Part shown: in pieces, positions 1-39,458 of the stretch
Numbering within the stretch: position 1 is the first letter of the stretch
Layout of the letters: each line of letters starts with the position of its first letter
Virus record (IMG/VR): IMGVR_UViG_3300045988_159199
From: a virus
Strand: one strand, 5' to 3'
DNA: 39,458 bases
Position numbers and translations under genes: made by a program
The notes under the pieces: model-generated
Databases searched by the model: none
What the model saw: only the letters and a program-made list of their open reading frames with translations
What the model was told of the DNA's origin: nothing

Positions 1-119
1 ATGATTCGGCACCCGAATATGCGAAAGGCCGCAAACCCTTGGAATTGCTTGGGTTTGCGGCCTTTGTCAGTGGAGCGGATGACGGGAATCGAACCCGCGT
101 AATCAGTTTGGAAGACTGA
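1..119. repeat. att direct repeat, int-distal copy (true extent hidden by the window edge)
   Basis: Bases 1-119 are identical base for base to 39340-39458. The repeat contains the tRNA 3' half and its terminator hairpin. Confidence 0.9.
71..119 (-). pseudogene. Duplicated 3' fragment of tRNA-Gly(UCC); not a complete tRNA
   Basis: The reverse complement gives an anticodon arm, T arm, acceptor 3' strand and CCA. The sequence after 119 has no GCGGATG to pair with the acceptor strand CATCCGC and no D arm. Confidence 0.7.
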
Positions 120-178
120 TTACGCGAACGCTTCCGCGCCTTGCACCACAGGCTTTGTCGCATATCCCGCCAGTCGAA

Positions 179-32489: not shown

Positions 32490-32774
32490 TCACGCCATCT
32501 CGCTTTCGGCGAGCGCTGGAATGGTGTTTTCGGCGGTGTCGAGCTTCTCAGCCATGGCAATGATTGAGGACAGAGGACGATGCGTCACGCCCGCAATGCG
32601 GCGCAGCTCGTCAAAGTTAAAAACACCGACATTGATTTTGCGGTTTAACGTGTTCCGAGGAATTTCTGCCCGATCAGCGAGCATAACTTGTGTCATTCCT
32701 GACTCATTGAGGACCTGCTTTATTGCAATCCCTAAATGCCTGTTTTCAAGCAAATATTGTTTCATATGAGACAT
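32490..32774 (-). CDS. Cro-like XRE-family HTH regulator, first gene of the early (lytic-direction) operon
   Basis: GMTQVMLADRAEIPRNTLNRKIN is an HTH. The gene is divergent from its paralogue, and its first codons (ATGTCTCATATGAAAC) coincide with an operator-like repeat. Confidence 0.8.
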   Translation of the reverse strand: MSHMKQYLLENRHLGIAIKQVLNESGMTQVMLADRAEIPRNTLNRKINVGVFNFDELRRIAGVTHRPLSSIIAMAEKLDTAENTIPALAESEMA

Positions 32775-32864
32775 GATAAAACCAAGATTGCGCTCTTCAA
32801 AACACGGCGTGTCTCATATGAAACAAGAATGCTTCATATGTAAGTAAAATGTCTCACATGCCAA
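32759..32864. promoter_or_regulatory. Operator cluster of the genetic switch: four copies of TGTCTCAYATG(AAAC)-type sites
   Basis: 32759-32773 (gtttcatatgagaca) is the exact reverse complement of 32810-32824 (tgtctcatatgaaac). Weaker copies lie at 32831-32845 and 32850-32864. The region is AT-rich and only 74 bp are non-coding. Confidence 0.6.
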
Positions 32865-33229
32865 CAGGAAAGAAGACCGCGACGATTGAATCAAAGGCGC
32901 TTTCAATCGCAATCAAGAGAGCTATGGCCGTACGTGATTTCAAGACACGATCACTGGCTATCGAATCGGGAGTGCCTTATGGCACCCTCCGACGCATCCT
33001 TGAGCTCAATACAGTCGCCGACTATGAACAACTCAGGAAGATTGCGGGAGCATTGCGCATGCCGCTCTCTTCCATCATCGCCGACGCCGAGCACCTTACA
33101 AAAGACGCAGGGGTCATCGAAGATTACCAAGCTACCGATAACCGAGAAACTTCGAGTGACCATGAGAACATCGACATCGACGCATGGGCCGACCGGATCA
33201 AGGCCGAAGATTCCATACACAATAATTAG
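32849..33229 (+). CDS. CI-like XRE-family HTH repressor (no S24 peptidase domain)
   Basis: LAIESGVPYGTLRRILE is an HTH. It shares IAIK, LR.IAG and PLSSIIA.AE.L with the Cro-like paralogue. It is transcribed toward int and followed by a terminator. Confidence 0.75.
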   Translation: MSHMPTGKKTATIESKALSIAIKRAMAVRDFKTRSLAIESGVPYGTLRRILELNTVADYEQLRKIAGALRMPLSSIIADAEHLTKDAGVIEDYQATDNRETSSDHENIDIDAWADRIKAEDSIHNN

Positions 33230-33293: not shown

Positions 33294-34523
33294 TCATATC
33301 TCGTAGGCCTCTATGGTGAGGCTGGTGTAGTAGCGGCTAACGAGTATTTTCAATCGCTTGCCAACAAGTGGCTCAGATGCAAAGTATGCGGCCGTCGACC
33401 GCGCCGTGATTTCCGAGAGCAAGACACCTCCGCTTTTGAGTGCAAAGTGCGGTTTTGCCTGCGATCCTTCCGGCACCGGTAGCTGTTCGACAGTGGCCTC
33501 GAAAGCGATGAACCCTTCGTCGGGAATTCTAGGACCATTCCAGTTGTTCTCCGAGACGCGGAATATTGCCGTTGCGGCGACCACATCCGCTCCATATGCT
33601 TGTCGCTGTTCGTATTCCTTGAGCGAGGCGTTACCAGTTTCGCTTTCCTTCGCCTCTTCCAGCGTTGGCACCATGACGTAGATTTCGGGAACGCCTGTTT
33701 GGTACCATCCTTGGCGCATGGCCACGAGTTCCACATTTTTCGCGCCAGATTCAAGGATTGCACGAATGTGGATTACCGCGATGTGGTTGAAGAGAACGCC
33801 GAACGGTTTCCCTTTGTATTCGACCGCATACCCATCATCCACGCCGCTGCGCCATTGTCTTCCGTTAAGTCGACTTTTCAGCGTTATCGGACGGGTAACA
33901 ACGCTGATTTTTTCGGCACGCCCCTCTTTGAGCTTGAGTATGGGGCGTGGGTCGTAGACGTAGATTGTGGCAGGGTATGAACCGGAGACGGTTTCGGTTT
34001 CCCGAGTCACCGACACTGACAGAATTTTTGGCGGGATGATGATCGGCGACGGCGATATCGTCCTTGACAACGCAGAACTTTGTCCCGTTTCTCGACGAGC
34101 CGACACTAACGCTTCACCATCCTCTACCTCGACGCCGGCGAGCGCAGGCGATGTTTCATCATTGGGCTGTGCATGTCCGTGGTTTGCGCGTCCGTCCCAG
34201 TGACCATTGGCTGCTCGTTTTCGCTCGTGTTCGTTATCCTCGTCCAGCACGATGCTGGGGTCTTTTGCGGCCCTGGCGGCGCGTTGTTCGGCTCGAATCT
34301 TCTCGGGGTCGTGGATCATGTCGCCGACGACCCACAGCATCCATCCGACGAATGCGATGATTAGCGCGATTATGGTGCATGTCAGGAAATCGGTGCTCAA
34401 TCCGCCAACGAAAATCAGCAGGGCGAATATCCATACTCCGATTGCCAGAATCCGGAATATGACCATACCGATGGTTCTGGGCATCGACGCCTTTCGCTTG
34501 GCCTGACGTTTTCCGGGCATCAT
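33294..34523 (-). CDS. Membrane protein, 2 N-terminal TM helices plus about 300-aa domain of unknown function (island gene D)
   Basis: 409-aa ORF with no competing frame. Helices: MVIFRILAIGVWIFALLIFVGGL and FLTCTIIALIIAFVGWMLWVV. It is preceded by the duplicated leader. Confidence 0.8.
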   Translation of the reverse strand: MMPGKRQAKRKASMPRTIGMVIFRILAIGVWIFALLIFVGGLSTDFLTCTIIALIIAFVGWMLWVVGDMIHDPEKIRAEQRAARAAKDPSIVLDEDNEHERKRAANGHWDGRANHGHAQPNDETSPALAGVEVEDGEALVSARRETGQSSALSRTISPSPIIIPPKILSVSVTRETETVSGSYPATIYVYDPRPILKLKEGRAEKISVVTRPITLKSRLNGRQWRSGVDDGYAVEYKGKPFGVLFNHIAVIHIRAILESGAKNVELVAMRQGWYQTGVPEIYVMVPTLEEAKESETGNASLKEYEQRQAYGADVVAATAIFRVSENNWNGPRIPDEGFIAFEATVEQLPVPEGSQAKPHFALKSGGVLLSEITARSTAAYFASEPLVGKRLKILVSRYYTSLTIEAYEI

Positions 34524-34585
34524 GCCTCCAACCTCTTTGTTCGTTCGGCCGACTCGATGCGGCTATGTTTAGATTCTACCGCCGT
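34518..34585 (-). repeat. Leader repeat copy A (68 bp) covering the first two codons, the RBS and a TAGAAT box of gene D
   Basis: It matches 35246-35312 with 2 mismatches and 1 indel. The minus strand reads ACGGCGGTAGAATCTAAACATAGCCGCATCGAGTCGGCCGAACGAACAAAGAGGTTGGAGGCATGATG. Confidence 0.85.
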
Positions 34586-34594
34586 CTTTTGGCA

Positions 34595-35251
34595 TCATTC
34601 CGCCACTTCATCTGCCGACAGGGGTTTCGACCGCCATCGATACGCTGTCACGTTCCTTAAATCATCTATGACTATCCGCGGTCGCAGTTCAGGTCGGCAT
34701 TGCGTTTCTGTATTCCGGTCGAATCGGTCGGCGGCATCACATAGCGCAAGACACAGTTCCTCGACGGATACGACGAGGCTGTACTCCGCGTTTTCCTCGT
34801 CGTCATGTTCCCACGTCTTGCCGAGTTTCGAACTCAGTCCAATACGCAATGAGAACGAGACGTGTTCAAGATTGACGTCATTCCGCATCAGCCTCCCTTG
34901 GTCATCCAACTCGTACAGGTATTTGGTCTCCATATTGGCATCGCCGTTGTGAAGCAGTTCGCAGCGCAGCTTGTAACATGCAAGGGCATCAAAGGCCGGC
35001 ATCGGGTCCTTACCCATTCTTGAGCTAAGGGCATATCCACAGTATTGCCGGTACCAGTCCATGTATCTTTTCCCGACTTTTTTCTCTTCCGGAAAGGCAA
35101 TCTGCCCGTAGGCATCCGGAATTGTGAGCGAAAGAGCTAGGGCGGCGCCATAGCATTCCGCCTGCAGCGTCTTCCTTACCTCATCGGCAAGGCTTATCTC
35201 CATAGGGTTCATCATCTGCGATGCAAGTCTTCTATTCTTCGTCGACATCAT
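34595..35251 (-). CDS. HEPN-like protein (Rx4H motif), predicted RNase/abortive-infection effector (island gene C)
   Basis: The 218-aa product is predicted helical. RCELLH is encoded at 34949-34966 (CGC TGC GAA CTG CTT CAC). An Ala-rich first helix AECYGAALALSLTIPDAYGQ is present. The gene is preceded by leader repeat B. Confidence 0.75.
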   Translation of the reverse strand: MMSTKNRRLASQMMNPMEISLADEVRKTLQAECYGAALALSLTIPDAYGQIAFPEEKKVGKRYMDWYRQYCGYALSSRMGKDPMPAFDALACYKLRCELLHNGDANMETKYLYELDDQGRLMRNDVNLEHVSFSLRIGLSSKLGKTWEHDDEENAEYSLVVSVEELCLALCDAADRFDRNTETQCRPELRPRIVIDDLRNVTAYRWRSKPLSADEVAE

Positions 35252-35312
35252 GCCTCCAACCTCGTTGTTCGTTCGGCCGGCTCGATGCGGCTTGTTTAGA
35301 TTCTACCGCCGT
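35246..35312 (-). repeat. Leader repeat copy B (67 bp) covering the first two codons, the RBS and a TAGAAT box of gene C
   Basis: Near-identical to 34518-34585. Confidence 0.85.
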
Positions 35313-35323
35313 ATATACGGAAT

Positions 35324-35354
35324 CGCCCCGGCCGCTCTTGCGAGCGCCGGGGCG
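35324..35354. other. GC-rich hairpin related in sequence to the 33259-33286 terminator but lacking a U-tract
   Basis: cgccccggccgctc / gagcgccggggcg. It shares the arms CCCCGG.CGCTC and GAGCGCCGGGG with the other hairpin. It lies between gene B and leader copy B. Confidence 0.5.
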
Positions 35355-35369
35355 GCTTCGGAGCATCGG

Positions 35370-36512
35370 TCAGTTGTCCGCTTGCCGAAATGTTTTTGAG
35401 CCGAATCCCATGGAGGCTCCTTGCTCTTTGAGCCCATCCGCCCATTGGTCTAGGAATCGGAATGGCACGTTGAGGCTGTTTTCGGCCTTGAACGTATCTA
35501 TCCCTTTATTTGGGTCGGCCGGGTCTCCGTATCCGGCAACAATCATTTGCTTAAGTAGTATCGGATGCTCGTCACCGACGTGTACAGGCTCCTCTTTTCT
35601 CCATCCTCTCGCGCTAAGTTGGATTTGCAGCGATCGGGTTCTGTCCGCGTCGATTATTCCGAGGTTGCTCGCGCGACTGATCATCGATGATATGGACATG
35701 CCCCATCCTGCTTTGAGTCGCACCAAATCGGTGAGCATGAGGCGCTGTGGCATGATGAGCTTCGCGTCGTTTTGAGGCATGAGCAGAGCACCGGCGAATC
35801 GGTGAGCCTCCCTCTCCATTTCCCGATAGAGCTGGGGTCTGCGGTATCGATGCAGAATTAGGTGTCCGAGCTCGTGTGCGATGGTGAATCTGAGTCTGTC
35901 ACCCGTATTGTTTTTCGCGCTGTATCCGATGGTCGGCATATCCTTGCAGTTCGGTTGCGTCACTCCGTCGCTGTTCAGGTGTGCGGTCTGTTTCGAGGCC
36001 AAGGCATGGAGCGGTGCCACCACGATGCCCATTTTTTCTATGGCGCGCGTGAGATTGGGGACGCTGCCGGATTCATTGAGTCCGAGATGAGTGCGGGTAC
36101 TGTCTGCCAAGCGCTCTATGCGGCTTTGCTCCAGCTCATTTTCTCTTGGAGCTATGGCATCAATCCATGATGTTTTGGGTTGCAGCCTCAGCACCGAGGA
36201 TAGCTTCTGCGCAACCGAGCGGAGCAGAGCATATTCCGCAGCAATGGCGTTTAGTTCTCCGACCGATGCGCTTGACGTATGGCGATACGTCAATTCAACA
36301 ATAGGGACGGGCTGATCCTGGTCGAGGAAAAACGACAACGGGTAGTCGGTCGCCATTGAGATTCTGCGCGCGGCCTCATCGGTGAAATCGATTTGCCGGT
36401 TTTGCAGTTTACTGAGCGTTCCTTGAGCTATGCCGGTTTTTTCCGCGAGCTTTTTCTGGGTCATGCGTTCGACCTGGCGGAGCAGGATGACCCTGTCCGG
36501 ATTATAGTTCAC
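35370..36512 (-). CDS. XRE-family HTH fused to ImmA/IrrE-type zinc metallopeptidase (M78, COG2856-like) (island gene B)
   Basis: The N-terminal HTH reads MTQKKLAEKTGIAQGTLSKLQN. HELGH is encoded at 35862-35876 (CAC GAG CTC GGA CAC) within FTIAHELGHLILH...EREAHRFAGALLMP. Confidence 0.85.
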   Translation of the reverse strand: MNYNPDRVILLRQVERMTQKKLAEKTGIAQGTLSKLQNRQIDFTDEAARRISMATDYPLSFFLDQDQPVPIVELTYRHTSSASVGELNAIAAEYALLRSVAQKLSSVLRLQPKTSWIDAIAPRENELEQSRIERLADSTRTHLGLNESGSVPNLTRAIEKMGIVVAPLHALASKQTAHLNSDGVTQPNCKDMPTIGYSAKNNTGDRLRFTIAHELGHLILHRYRRPQLYREMEREAHRFAGALLMPQNDAKLIMPQRLMLTDLVRLKAGWGMSISSMISRASNLGIIDADRTRSLQIQLSARGWRKEEPVHVGDEHPILLKQMIVAGYGDPADPNKGIDTFKAENSLNVPFRFLDQWADGLKEQGASMGFGSKTFRQADN

Positions 36513-36545
36513 GTCTCTCTCCTTTTGTTTTTACCGCATTGAACT

Positions 36546-37202
36546 CTAGCAACCCACCTTCTCTTCGATTGTCAGGCCCTTCAGAATGTCGATTTCGTCA
36601 TCTGGTTCCGGGTCGAACCCCGGCATCCATCCTCGGCCGCCACCGCCATCCGACATGATGGGGAACGAATACGCCGATTTTCCTTTCGCGCCATACTTTC
36701 CGGGGCTTATCGGCTTATACACGCGCAGGAACGCCGGTTCGGGAAAAAGATAGTCGCAGGCGATGGTGAGCTTGACCTCGCTCAGATCGGGTTGACCAAG
36801 GACGTTGACCATAAGCTGGCCCACACCCTTCGCACCATTCTGGCTGTATCGCGCCCTGCCCGCCAGCGTATGACCGGAACACGGCATACCACGTGTGATG
36901 GGATCAACGGCATGGAAGTAAGAGATTGCACCCGTGGGCGTGTGCATGAGGTGGAAGAATCCCGAATTGTCCACTTCCCACCACCTAACCGGATGAAATT
37001 CTTTCCACTCCTTCGCCATGTTCATGTTGATGAGGTATGCCGCGATTCGCGATTTCTGCCGGTCGCTAAGACGCTTATATGAGGCGAGGTCCTTCTTGAT
37101 GTTTGCGGTGCAGTCTCGAACGAATTCAGGCAGAAACTCGCAGAGCGGACTAAAGGCCTCCATGACCGCCTGCTTCTCATCGATTTTCGCGATATCCGTC
37201 AC
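36546..37202 (-). CDS. Protein of unknown function, first gene of the A-B operon (island gene A)
   Basis: 218-aa ORF with a GTG start at 37202 (an alternative ATG lies 13 codons in). It ends 33 nt upstream of gene B. No motif was recognised. Confidence 0.7.
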   Translation of the reverse strand: MTDIAKIDEKQAVMEAFSPLCEFLPEFVRDCTANIKKDLASYKRLSDRQKSRIAAYLINMNMAKEWKEFHPVRWWEVDNSGFFHLMHTPTGAISYFHAVDPITRGMPCSGHTLAGRARYSQNGAKGVGQLMVNVLGQPDLSEVKLTIACDYLFPEPAFLRVYKPISPGKYGAKGKSAYSFPIMSDGGGGRGWMPGFDPEPDDEIDILKGLTIEEKVGC

Positions 37203-37244
37203 GCCAATGACCTTTCGTTTCCCTTGGATAACTTCTAAAAGAAT

Positions 37245-37263
37245 ATTTTAACACTAGATGTTA
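37245..37263 (-). promoter_or_regulatory. Extended -10 promoter (TGTTAAAAT) for the A-B operon, overlapped by inverted repeat TAACA-N5-TGTTA
   Basis: The minus strand reads agTGtTAAAAT (37253-37245). TAACACTAGATGTTA lies at 37249-37263 in the AT-rich divergent intergenic region. Confidence 0.45.
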
Positions 37264-37352
37264 CTATCAAGGAATAATTCGCCGCCCTTCAGGCACCACC
37301 AGAAATAAAGCCGCTTGCCGCAACGTTCGACCGGCGTGTCGCGACTGCCATC

Positions 37353-37650: not shown

Positions 37651-37797
37651 ATGAACACAACAAACGCATACAGGCTCGTCTCGCTGATATGTGGCGCGAT
37701 GTGCCTCATTCTCGCCATCGGCGGTCAGGCCATCGCGGCCGGAACCTTCGGCATGGCCGCCGGAGTGTTCGGCTATCTGTCGGGAGGCCGGAAATGA
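37651..37797 (+). CDS. Small membrane peptide (48 aa), Gly-zipper-like
   Basis: GGAG lies 4 nt upstream of ATG. Sequence: MNTTNAYRLVSLICGAMCLILAIGGQAIAAGTFGMAAGVFGYLSGGRK. Its stop overlaps the next start (ATGA). Confidence 0.55.
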   Translation: MNTTNAYRLVSLICGAMCLILAIGGQAIAAGTFGMAAGVFGYLSGGRK

Positions 37798-38021
37798 GCA
37801 CCGCAAGATATCTCAGCCTCAAGGAGGTCGGCGAGCGCATCGGCACGAGCAATCCGGCCGCGAGGGGGTATCATCTGCCGGAACCGGACGCACTGATCGG
37901 CACGACTCGCGGCTGGCTTCCGGAGACAATCGATGCGTGGAACGCCGCCCGCCCCGGTCGTGGTGCGGGCGGCGGAAGGCCGCGCAAGAATCGCAATCAG
38001 GCCGATTCTCCCACCGCCTGA
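37794..38021 (+). CDS. Xis/AlpA-like small HTH DNA-binding protein (candidate excisionase)
   Basis: GGGAGG lies upstream of ATG 37794. Sequence: YLSLKEVGERIGTSNPAARGY..TRGWLPETIDAW, followed by a basic tail. Its 3' end overlaps the integrase 3' end by 25 nt (convergent). Confidence 0.6.
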   Translation: MSTARYLSLKEVGERIGTSNPAARGYHLPEPDALIGTTRGWLPETIDAWNAARPGRGAGGGRPRKNRNQADSPTA

Positions 38022-39295: not shown

Positions 39296-39365
39296 CGAGG
39301 TCACAATCAGGCACGTTTGGCCCAAATCTTGCAATCACGATGATTCGGCACCCGAATATGCGAAA

Positions 39366-39401
39366 GGCCGCAAACCCTTGGAATTGCTTGGGTTTGCGGC
39401 C
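39366..39401 (-). terminator. Rho-independent terminator downstream of tRNA-Gly (12-bp stem)
   Basis: ggccgcaaaccc / gggtttgcggcc with a 12-nt loop, followed by TTTCGC on the minus strand. An identical copy lies at 27-62. Confidence 0.65.
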
Positions 39402-39409
39402 TTTGTCAG

Positions 39410-39458
39410 TGGAGCGGATGACGGGAATCGAACCCGCGTAATCAGTTTGGAAGACTGA
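39410..39458 (-). tRNA. tRNA-Gly (anticodon UCC), 3' part only; the 5' half lies beyond the window end
   Basis: The reverse complement reads TCAGT CTTCCAA ACTGA TTAC GCGGG TTCGATT CCCGT CATCCGC T CCA. These are the anticodon arm with UCC, the T arm, the acceptor strand, discriminator U and CCA. Confidence 0.7.

What the first reader, a model, noticed from the sequence alone, without database searches (positions are those of the whole stretch)
35370..37202. Unknown 218-aa protein co-transcribed with an HTH::ImmA/IrrE metallopeptidase fusion (toxin-antitoxin-like sensor pair, or the prophage induction protease)
Genes A and B are 33 nt apart behind an extended -10 promoter. B joins an XRE HTH (residues about 15-40) to a peptidase domain with HELGH (35862-35876) and the downstream E..A..FA..LLMP helix. 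That helix is typical of ImmA (ICEBs1), IrrE (Deinococcus) and COG2856 proteins. Established knowledge is that such peptidases cleave a partner HTH repressor in response to a signal, and that COG2856-Xre pairs have been proposed as TA-like modules. From memory, the RosmerTA defence system has an antitoxin with this same HTH plus M78 architecture next to a toxin of unknown fold. That would fit the order A then B, but this needs verification. The competing hypothesis is that B is the anti-repressor protease for the prophage's CI-like repressor (32849-33229), which lacks the usual S24 autocleavage domain.
Basis: partly seen in the sequence, partly recalled or inferred. Interest (0 to 1): 0.75.

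Follow-up and report, generated by a model that had tools for sequence, protein, structure and literature searches.

The report
RosmerTA toxin-antitoxin cargo in Bifidobacterium prophage
The two genes are a diverged copy of the known RosmerTA toxin-antitoxin/anti-phage module, carried as swappable cargo in a common Bifidobacterium longum prophage, and are most likely not the prophage's own induction switch.

Summary
Two minus-strand genes lie 33 nt apart: A (37202..36546, 218 aa) and B (36512..35370, 380 aa). B has an N-terminal XRE HTH and an M78 peptidase domain with HELGH at 35862-35876.

B matches the PADLOC RmrA models strongly (best PDLC03953, E=1.8e-86, near full length). A alone hits RmrT model PDLC03939 only weakly (E=0.004). 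A's rare family (about 25 representatives among 1.84 billion proteins) includes members that hit that model at 1e-11 to 4e-13. Gordonia phage Malibo carries the PDLC03939/PDLC03953 pair in the same order.

A-family genes sit directly upstream of B-family genes in every locus examined. These include other prophages, a B. animalis chromosome, a conjugative element and a Rep plasmid.

A sister prophage (L034) has a 100% identical CI-like repressor but no A or B. A different candidate defence gene (HEC-09) occupies that slot. This argues against B being the induction protease.

Verdict: a RosmerTA-type module carried as prophage cargo, and a new member of a known kind. A has a confident predicted fold with no match in PDB or BFVD. 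Its toxicity and target are untested.

The parts
36546..37202 (-). Gene A: 218-aa soluble protein, a putative RmrT-type toxin and diverged member of the PADLOC RmrT PDLC03939 family
   Evidence: ORF. The direct PADLOC RmrT hit is E=0.0042, near full length. Eight of 27 family members hit the same model, best 3.6e-13. There are no Pfam, NCBIfam or PHROG hits. No hydrophobic segment, with maximum KD19 of 0.81. The AF2 model has pLDDT 85 and pTM 0.79 and no PDB or BFVD fold match.
36549..36647 (-). Acidic, predicted-disordered C-terminal tail of A (residues 186-218) carrying the conserved motif F-x-P-x(2-9)-[hydrophobic]-L-x-x-L
   Evidence: pLDDT is below 50 for residues 186-205. The tail has pI 4.07, with 8 D/E and 3 K/R. 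The motif occurs in 22/27 family members (loose pattern) or 14/27 (strict), against 0/120 and 3/96 in background sets.
35370..36512 (-). Gene B: 380-aa RmrA-type antitoxin/regulator, an XRE HTH fused to an M78 (ImmA/IrrE) zinc peptidase plus a C-terminal domain
   Evidence: PADLOC RmrA PDLC03953 at E=1.8e-86, residues 4-332 against model 6-331 of 373, plus 13 further RmrA models. phrog_2439 at 2.8e-69. Pfam HTH_3 and Peptidase_M78.
36327..36464 (-). XRE-type helix-turn-helix domain of B (residues 17-62)
   Evidence: Pfam HTH_3 E=1.8e-5, 25.1 bits against a cut-off of 23.
35673..36038 (-). Peptidase_M78 domain of B (residues 159-280)
   Evidence: Pfam PF06114 E=2.2e-14. PADLOC capP 8e-17. PDB CapP 7t5t E=8e-4 around the active site.
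35862..35876 (-). HELGH zinc-binding and catalytic motif (H213, E214, H217)
   Evidence: Direct translation. Invariant in 29 B-family sequences at 30-85% identity.
35775..35816 (-). EREAHRFAGALLMP helix carrying the presumed third zinc ligand (E235)
   Evidence: Direct translation. E233, E235, A236, A240, L244 and P246 are invariant.
37245..37270 (-). Putative promoter of the A-B operon: TTGATA (37270-37265) and the extended -10-like TGtTAAAAT (37253-37245)
   Evidence: Sequence, scan hit, and the -10 core conserved in diverged homologous loci. Function not shown.
37249..37263 (.). Inverted repeat TAACA-N5-TGTTA overlapping the promoter spacer and -10, a candidate operator for B's HTH
   Evidence: Single occurrence in the window against 0.02 expected. 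Only partly conserved in B. vespertilionis and absent in more distant loci. Weak evidence.
35324..35354 (-). GC-rich hairpin 15 nt after B's stop codon, terminator-like but without a U-tract
   Evidence: Perfect 9-bp arms. The fold of 35305-35372 is -36.9 kcal/mol, z = -3.3 against shuffles. The terminator scan did not call it because there is no T-run.
34582..37351 (.). Variable cargo cassette (218-aa phrog_18591 gene, B, A and the promoter), replaced by other genes in sister prophage L034
   Evidence: blastn of L034 against the window breaks at about 34581 and 37352. GC is 54% here against 60% for the whole prophage.

Best explanation
A and B form a RosmerTA-type two-gene toxin-antitoxin module. 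It is carried as accessory cargo in the lysogeny region of a complete Bifidobacterium longum prophage, between the integrase and the CI-like repressor. B is the RmrA component. Its HTH probably autoregulates the A-B promoter, and the protein keeps A harmless in the lysogen. The intact zinc-peptidase site is expected to be part of either the neutralisation step or the trigger step. A is the RmrT component: a soluble protein with two long N-terminal helices, a beta-sheet domain and an acidic disordered tail. It is presumed to arrest or kill the cell when B's control is lost, for example on infection by another phage. That would give the lysogen abortive-infection-type protection and, incidentally, stabilise the prophage. 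Shown here: the domain architecture, family membership by profile, conserved gene order and co-divergence of A and B across unrelated mobile elements, independence from the prophage's CI, and an intact catalytic site. Inferred from other RosmerTA systems and not shown here: A's toxicity, neutralisation by B, the trigger, the target and any anti-phage effect.
For: B matches RmrA PDLC03953 at 1.8e-86 and 13 other RmrA models. A's family links to RmrT PDLC03939: P0030 3.6e-13, P0022 5.7e-12, P0023 3.2e-11, P0027 6.9e-7, P0021 1.1e-6, P0011 2.3e-3 and A 4.2e-3, all near full length. A's own profile recovers those proteins at 1e-10 to 1e-20. Gordonia phage Malibo gp35/gp34 hit PDLC03939 (3.1e-12) and PDLC03953 (6.1e-77) in the same order next to an integrase, and gp35 aligns to the A-family profile (hhalign E=7.8e-6). 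An A-family gene lies directly upstream of a B-family gene, on the same strand and from an 11-nt overlap to about 70 nt apart, in all loci examined. The two proteins co-diverge, with A always faster. A/B identities are 79/84, 58/64, 41/51, 33/49, 30/45 and 27/40%. The HExxH motif and E235 are invariant. The pair has its own promoter-like element and a terminator-like hairpin. The cassette has lower GC and is replaced in sister prophage L034 by cargo that includes the PADLOC candidate defence gene HEC-09 at 2.9e-28. Literature: RosmerTA is defined as a Zn-peptidase antitoxin plus a toxin of unknown function, and an rmrA deletion could not be transformed (10.1101/2022.05.11.491447). A phage-encoded RosmerTA defends (PMC10440598). 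rmrA is essential in Tn-seq. RipAB is a Rosmer TA (PMC12795458).
Against: A's direct match to any RmrT model is marginal (E=0.0042, 14.8 bits), so standard defence finders would probably not call the system. The RmrT toxins tested experimentally (E. coli OLC-716, PDLC03935; Kita D5; RipA) belong to other families. A shows no homology to the E. coli one (hhalign E=0.36). I found no experiment on the PDLC03939 family. A has no recognisable catalytic motif, membrane segment or known toxin fold, so its toxicity rests on analogy. Some RosmerTA homologues tested elsewhere gave little or no phage protection (PMC12322248).
Confidence: 0.75

Rival explanations
1. B is the prophage's induction (anti-repressor) protease. 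Like ImmA acting on ImmR in ICEBs1, it would cleave the S24-less CI-like 126-aa repressor (32849-33229) in response to a signal, with A as an accessory factor.
For: B has an intact ImmA/IrrE-type M78 site. The CI-like protein has no autocleavage domain. B lies in the lysogeny region of the prophage. Established knowledge: ImmA, IrrE and CapP cleave partner HTH repressors.
Against: Sister prophage L034 has a 100% identical CI, 99% identical early genes and a 95% identical integrase. It has no A or B (best tblastn E=0.27) and no M78 protein among the replacement genes. A-B homologues occur without any CI, Cro, p409 or p218 homologue in other prophages, a chromosome, a conjugative element and a Rep plasmid. 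B is fused to its own HTH. It is separated from the CI gene by two genes and convergent to it, rather than co-transcribed as immR-immA are.
Confidence: 0.06
2. A-B is a bona fide toxin-antitoxin pair whose main role is addiction, that is post-segregational stabilisation of the prophage or other mobile element, rather than anti-phage defence.
For: The module is found on plasmids, conjugative elements and prophages. This is typical of addiction modules. RosmerTA homologues sometimes give little phage protection (PMC12322248). rmrA behaves as an essential antitoxin.
Against: The slot it occupies carries a candidate defence gene (HEC-09) in the sister prophage. RosmerTA systems, including a phage-borne one, have shown defence. 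The two roles are not mutually exclusive.
Confidence: 0.15
3. A is not a toxin. B would be a fused CapH/CapP-like stress-sensing transcriptional switch, and A would be its cofactor, sensor or substrate, controlling expression of neighbouring cargo such as the 218-aa phrog_18591 gene or the 409-aa membrane protein.
For: B's peptidase domain resembles CapP (PADLOC 8e-17; PDB 7t5t 8e-4). A lacks any toxin-like signature. Two unknown genes follow on the same strand.
Against: A GC-rich hairpin separates B from the downstream genes. A-B occurs elsewhere without those genes. L034 keeps the 409-aa gene at 88% identity while lacking A and B. The tight A-B co-divergence points to a direct protein partnership.
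Confidence: 0.04

Closest known systems
RosmerTA (RmrT/RmrA) anti-phage toxin-antitoxin systems (Millman et al. 2022; PADLOC models PDLC03939 and PDLC03953)
   Same: Two adjacent co-oriented genes with the toxin first. The antitoxin has an N-terminal XRE HTH, an M78 Zn-peptidase and a C-terminal extension of about 380 aa. The partner is about 220 aa with no annotated function. Both are carried on mobile elements. B matches RmrA at 1.8e-86, and A's family matches RmrT PDLC03939.
   Different: A itself is so diverged that its direct RmrT hit is only E=0.004. It belongs to a Bifidobacterium-centred clade of a rare family. No member of this RmrT family is known to me to have been tested.
Gordonia phage Malibo gp35/gp34, and the validated Gordonia phage Kita RosmerTA (Ernits et al. 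2023, PMC10440598)
   Same: An actinobacterial temperate phage carries the pair next to the integrase in the same gene order. Malibo gp35/gp34 hit the same two PADLOC models. Kita shows that a phage-borne RosmerTA can defend.
   Different: B is only 31% identical to Malibo gp34. Malibo gp35 aligns to the A profile only at hhalign E=7.8e-6. The Kita toxin (D5) is a membrane-depolarising protein, whereas A has no hydrophobic segment.
RipA/RipB (Spr1630/Spr1629) of Streptococcus pneumoniae (PMC12795458)
   Same: A Rosmer-family TA with an XRE+ImmA-like antitoxin. B gives a partial match to the NCBIfam spr1629 family (2.5e-28).
   Different: B scores 99 bits against a cut-off of 335, so it is not an equivalog. 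RipA targets the DnaN clamp and depends on ClpX. Nothing here shows that A does either.
ImmA/ImmR of ICEBs1 and phage-type anti-repressor proteases
   Same: The M78 fold with HExxH and the downstream Glu helix, and a location in a lysogeny/integration module.
   Different: ImmA is a stand-alone protease co-transcribed with its repressor substrate. B carries its own HTH, is not co-transcribed with the CI-like gene and is dispensable for a prophage with the identical CI.
CapH/CapP regulators of CBASS and other defence operons (PDB 7t5t)
   Same: This is the closest solved structure to B's peptidase core. The logic is an HTH repressor plus an M78 protease.
   Different: CapH and CapP are two separate proteins regulating a downstream defence operon. 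Here the two domains are fused and the conserved partner is A, not an operon.

Membership tests
RosmerTA | An antitoxin (RmrA) with an XRE-type HTH fused to an M78 Zn-peptidase, matching RmrA profiles over most of its length | tested here: met
   PADLOC PDLC03953 at E=1.8e-86, 288.7 bits, residues 4-332 against model 6-331 of 373, plus 13 other RmrA models. Pfam HTH_3 and Peptidase_M78 are above their cut-offs.
RosmerTA | An adjacent, co-oriented partner gene forming a two-gene unit | tested here: met
   A and B are 33 nt apart on the same strand. The same order and tight spacing hold in all homologous loci.
RosmerTA | The partner belongs to a catalogued RmrT family | tested here: met
   The direct hit is marginal (PDLC03939, E=0.0042). 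It is met through intermediates: 8 of 27 family members hit PDLC03939, best 3.6e-13. Those proteins are found by A's profile at 1e-10 to 1e-20. Malibo gp35 hits PDLC03939 at 3.1e-12 and the A profile at 7.8e-6.
RosmerTA | An intact metallopeptidase active site in RmrA | tested here: met
   H213, E214, H217 and E235 are invariant across 29 homologues.
RosmerTA | RmrT is toxic and RmrA neutralises it | not testable with these tools
   Only analogy is available: the rmrA deletion could not be transformed, rmrA is essential in Tn-seq, and RipB antagonises RipA. All of these concern other RmrT families.
RosmerTA | Confers protection against phage infection | not testable with these tools
   Context only: it occupies a variable cargo slot that holds the candidate defence gene HEC-09 in a sister prophage.
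ImmA/ImmR-type induction module | The protease gene is adjacent to and co-transcribed with its HTH repressor substrate | tested here: not met
   The CI-like gene (32849-33229, +) is convergent to B and separated from it by two genes. B is co-transcribed with A instead.
ImmA/ImmR-type induction module | The protease is co-inherited with the repressor it controls | tested here: not met
   L034 has a 100% identical CI and no A, B or other M78 protein. A-B loci elsewhere lack any CI homologue.
ImmA/ImmR-type induction module | The protease cleaves the repressor on signal | not testable with these tools
   This needs a cleavage assay.
spr1629 (RipB) family repressor/antitoxin (NCBIfam NF052239) | A score above the curated equivalog cut-off | tested here: not met
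   99.2 bits against a cut-off of 335. B is related but not an equivalog.
CapH/CapP regulatory pair | A separate HTH repressor and M78 protease controlling a downstream defence operon | tested here: not met
   The domains are fused in B. The match is at domain level only (capP 8e-17; 7t5t 8e-4). A hairpin separates B from the downstream genes.

The most novel reading that the evidence does not exclude
A would be the founding characterised member of a structurally new toxin family, with a confident predicted fold and no match in PDB or BFVD. Its conserved acidic C-terminal linear motif (F-x-P...hydrophobic-L-x-x-L, in a disordered tail) would be the handle through which RmrA, possibly with ClpX, recognises or cleaves the toxin. 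A similar ending (FTPDIDLDIL) on the globally unrelated, experimentally verified E. coli RmrT would then hint at a shared tail code. Such a code could explain how RmrA-type antitoxins pair with many unrelated toxins.
Probability: 0.12. Interest if true: 0.6.

Novelty: new member of a known kind. Interest (0 to 1): 0.3.

Why it matters
The cassette sits in a very common B. longum prophage. The exact A protein is indexed in 4,672 blocks of the assembly collection. Public records annotate A as "hypothetical protein" and B as "XRE family transcriptional regulator". Recognising it as RosmerTA cargo adds a prophage-borne defence/TA function to a key infant-gut commensal. It also shows that the integrase-to-repressor slot of this prophage is a swappable defence hotspot. 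Finally, it gives a well-populated, soluble and confidently modelled RmrT family in which the unresolved RosmerTA mechanism could be studied: the role of the peptidase, the trigger and the toxin's target. It does not reveal a new kind of system.

Tried and rejected
1. Direct annotation of A. Pfam gave only a sub-threshold TetR_C_2 hit. NCBIfam and PHROGs gave nothing.

2. Structure from the shallow 11-sequence alignment. The model was poor (pLDDT 53). It was rescued by the 27-sequence alignment (pLDDT 85).

3. Fold search of A against PDB and BFVD. Nothing was significant (best E 0.7-1.7, TM below 0.3).

4. Profile of A against PDB sequences. The ERCC1 central domain hit at E=0.09. I rejected it as evidence for a nuclease fold because Foldseek found no XPF, ERCC1 or restriction-enzyme match and no PD-(D/E)xK-like invariant residues exist. 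Only E9 and Q121 are invariant.

5. Homology of A to the verified E. coli RmrT. None was found (hhalign E=0.36).

6. A in phage and plasmid collections. No tblastn match in 50,697 phage records and no DNA match in PLSDB.

7. Genome scan. The broad A profile failed because it has no conserved stretch. The narrow profile found only B. vespertilionis.

8. Operator search. TAACA-N5-TGTTA is unique in the window but not conserved, so it stays only a candidate.

9. A universal C-terminal tail motif across RmrT partners. Not supported, because several partner families have basic tails.

10. Rfam. Only the tRNA at the att sites was found, with no RNA antitoxin or riboswitch.

11. The generic terminator scan did not call the hairpin after B because it lacks a T-run.
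Full report
OBSERVATION. The two genes exist exactly where stated, on the minus strand. A is 37202..36546 (218 aa, GTG start). B is 36512..35370 (380 aa, GTG start). The gap between them is 33 nt. HELGH is encoded by the reverse complement of 35862-35876 and forms residues 213-217 of B. EREAHRFAGALLMP follows at residues 233-246. Pfam places HTH_3 at residues 17-62 and Peptidase_M78 at 159-280, both above their curated cut-offs. Each start codon has a Shine-Dalgarno site: GAAAGG 8 nt before A and AAGGAG 6 nt before B. The start of A agrees with all its homologues.

An extended -10-like element, TGtTAAAAT (37253..37245), lies about 43 nt upstream of A. Its core is conserved upstream of A homologues that share only 41-79% protein identity. 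This supports a promoter better than the generic scan does, since the scan's single hit is no more than chance for the region. A GC-rich hairpin (35324-35354) follows B's stop codon. The fold of 35305-35372 has -36.9 kcal/mol and z = -3.3. It separates B from the next gene. A and B therefore look like a self-contained bicistronic unit.

WHAT B IS. B matches 14 PADLOC RmrA models. The best is PDLC03953, at E=1.8e-86 over residues 4-332. It also matches phrog_2439 at 2.8e-69. Its score against the NCBIfam spr1629 (RipB) antitoxin family is 99 bits against a cut-off of 335, so it is related but not an equivalog. The nearest solved structure by sequence is CapP (7t5t), and only around the active site. 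In an alignment of 29 homologues at 30-85% identity, H213, E214, H217 and E235 are invariant. The peptidase site is therefore under selection and not degenerate. Public records call B an "XRE family transcriptional regulator" of Bifidobacterium longum and call A "hypothetical protein".

WHAT A IS. A has no Pfam, NCBIfam or PHROG match. Its only PADLOC hit is a marginal, near full-length one to RmrT model PDLC03939 (E=0.0042). The family is rare. There are 11 clusters among 5.8 billion sequences. An exhaustive profile search found 25 representatives at E<=1e-3 among 1.84 billion proteins.

Those distant relatives supply the link to RmrT. Eight of the 27 aligned members hit the same model. P0030 scores 3.6e-13, P0022 5.7e-12, P0023 3.2e-11, P0027 6.9e-7 and P0021 1.1e-6, all end to end. 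A's own profile finds these same proteins at 1e-10 to 1e-20.

Gordonia phage Malibo carries gp35 (223 aa) overlapping gp34 (365 aa) beside its integrase. gp35 hits PDLC03939 at 3.1e-12 and gp34 hits PDLC03953 at 6.1e-77. gp35 also aligns over its full length to the A-family profile (hhalign E=7.8e-6). PDLC03939 and PDLC03953 therefore behave as a cognate RosmerTA subtype, and A/B are diverged members of it.

With the 27-sequence alignment, AlphaFold gives a confident model (pLDDT 85, pTM 0.79). It has two long N-terminal helices (9-41 and 47-69), a beta-sheet domain (about 75-182) and a disordered acidic tail. Foldseek finds nothing significant in PDB or BFVD. A has no hydrophobic segment. It is therefore unlike the membrane-depolarising Kita RmrT.

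A AND B ARE A CONSERVED PAIR. Every A-family gene I could place has a B-family gene immediately downstream on the same strand. This holds for P0011 and P0008, P0030 on a small Rep_OBD plasmid, P0022 and B. vespertilionis.

I also started from B and took relatives at 49, 45 and 39% identity on long contigs. In each case the upstream gene belongs to the A family, with hhalign E=4.5e-56, 9.7e-49 and 2.3e-11. The most distant of these upstream genes (the 174-aa gene of L021) also hits PDLC03939 at 8.9e-13. These loci are a different prophage, a B. animalis chromosomal site and a conjugative element with a TraG-type coupling protein.

Paired A/B identities to the window are 79/84, 58/64, 41/51, 33/49, 30/45 and 27/40%. 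The two proteins co-diverge, and A always diverges faster. None of the window's other lysogeny-region proteins (CI-like, Cro-like, 409 aa, 218 aa) accompanies the pair outside copies of this same prophage.

TESTING THE RIVAL (B AS INDUCTION PROTEASE). The window is a complete prophage. Bases 1-119 are identical to 39340-39458. They overlap a tRNA at 74-137 (-). The flanking gene in a complete B. longum genome is tRNA-Gly(TCC).

A look-up of the exact CI-like protein returned L034. It has the same backbone, with about 99% nucleotide identity through the early region and a 95% identical integrase. Its CI is 100% identical. Window ~34582-37351 (the 218-aa phrog_18591 gene, B, A and the promoter) is replaced there by four other genes. 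L034 has no A or B (best tblastn E=0.27). None of the replacement proteins is an M78 peptidase. One of them is the PADLOC candidate defence protein HEC-09 (E=2.9e-28).

So an identical repressor exists without B, and the slot behaves as a variable defence-cargo site. B is also fused to its own HTH. It is separated from the CI gene by two genes and convergent to it, unlike immR-immA. These results make the induction-protease reading unlikely. A cleavage assay is still needed to exclude it, and I do not know whether L034-type prophages are inducible.

MECHANISM (SHOWN VERSUS INFERRED). Shown: architecture, family placement, an autonomous operon-like unit, obligate A-B linkage with co-divergence, an intact catalytic site, and cargo status (GC 54% against 60% for the prophage).

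Inferred from the literature on other RosmerTA systems:
- The partner of RmrA is a toxin. The rmrA deletion could not be transformed, rmrA is essential in Tn-seq, and RipB antagonises RipA.
- Such modules can protect against phage, including one carried on an actinophage, though often narrowly or not at all.
- Control may involve ClpX, and how the peptidase acts is unresolved.

My best guess has three steps. B represses the operon through its HTH and holds A inactive. An infection-linked cue disturbs this. A then arrests the cell. I cannot say what A targets. Only E9 and Q121 are invariant in the family, which fits a binding protein better than an enzyme, but that is speculation.

COMPARISON AND NOVELTY. 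The pair meets every sequence-level criterion of RosmerTA that can be tested here. It fails the context criteria of an ImmA/ImmR induction module and of a CapH/CapP pair. It is a new, diverged member of a known kind. Standard tools would probably miss it, because A's direct RmrT score is only 14.8 bits.

Three points give it moderate value. The prophage is abundant: exact A is indexed in 4,672 assembly blocks, including complete B. longum genomes. The integrase-to-repressor slot is a demonstrable cargo hotspot. The RmrT family has a confident fold with no structural match.

SIDE OBSERVATION. The disordered tail of A carries the motif F-x-P-x(2-9)-hydrophobic-L-x-x-L. It is present in 22/27 family members (loose pattern) or 14/27 (strict), against 0/120 and 3/96 in control sets. 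The unrelated, verified E. coli RmrT ends in FTPDIDLDILKTG. Other RmrA partners have basic tails. A shared recognition handle is therefore only a low-probability idea worth testing.

DEAD ENDS. These are listed under Tried and rejected: no phage or plasmid matches for A, an insignificant ERCC1 hit, a non-conserved operator candidate, a failed broad-profile genome scan and no RNA elements.

Noticed in passing
window 1-119 and 39340-39458; tRNA at 74-137 (-) and 39413-39458 (-): The first and last 119 bases of the window are identical direct repeats that overlap the 3' part of a tRNA gene. The flanking gene in a complete B. longum genome is tRNA-Gly(TCC). These are attL and attR, so the window is one whole 39-kb prophage.
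   Followed up: yes
L034 8745-11850, equivalent to window 34582-37351: A sister prophage with an identical CI carries different cargo in this slot: genes of 254, 70, 148 and 259 aa. The 259-aa protein hits the PADLOC candidate defence family HEC-09 (2.9e-28) and weakly hits the NYN domain. The slot is a variable defence hotspot.
   Followed up: partly
window 36549-36647 (A residues 186-218): The disordered C-terminus of the A family carries a conserved acidic tail motif, F-x-P...hydrophobic-L-x-x-L. The globally unrelated, verified E. coli OLC-716 RmrT ends similarly (FTPDIDLDILKTG). This may be a docking, cleavage or degron motif, but it is not universal among RmrA partners.
   Followed up: partly
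window 34595-35251 (-) and 33294-34523 (-): Two further unknown genes follow A-B on the same strand. One is a 218-aa protein matching only phrog_18591 (3e-19, unknown function). The other is a 409-aa protein with an N-terminal hydrophobic stretch (KD19 2.77 at residue 21), which suggests a membrane protein, and it has no family hit. L034 retains the 409-aa gene at 88% identity and lacks the 218-aa gene. They may be additional lysogen-expressed cargo such as superinfection exclusion.
   Followed up: partly
window 32490-32774 (-) and 32849-33229 (+): The divergent Cro-like (94 aa) and CI-like (126 aa) proteins both match phrog_4583 and are about 40% identical to each other, so the switch is built from two paralogous HTH proteins. 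Neither has an S24 domain. How this prophage is induced remains open.
   Followed up: no
window about 37797-38021 (+), overlapping the end of the integrase gene: A 75-aa ORF has DNA that matches genes annotated 'excise' or HTH DNA-binding in Gordonia and Arthrobacter phages at 78-80% identity. It is probably the excisionase. Two tiny ORFs (49 and 48 aa) precede it and are conserved in all copies of the prophage.
   Followed up: no
L018/L019 5140-5529 (-): In another Bifidobacterium-type prophage, the A-B homologue pair is followed by a separate stand-alone 129-aa Peptidase_M78 gene on the opposite strand, next to 65-aa and 157-aa genes. This may be that phage's own ImmA-like protease, distinct from its RmrA.
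   Followed up: no
window 37249-37263: The inverted repeat TAACA-N5-TGTTA overlaps the spacer and -10 element of the A-B promoter. It occurs once in the window against 0.02 expected. It has 4 of 5 matches in B. vespertilionis and is absent in more distant loci. It is a candidate operator for B's HTH.
   Followed up: partly
L006-L008: A distant A-B pair (P0030 plus a 387-aa HTH-M78 protein) sits on a small contig beside a Rep_OBD/RepB_C replication gene and a DUF3021 gene. It therefore looks plasmid-borne.
   Followed up: no
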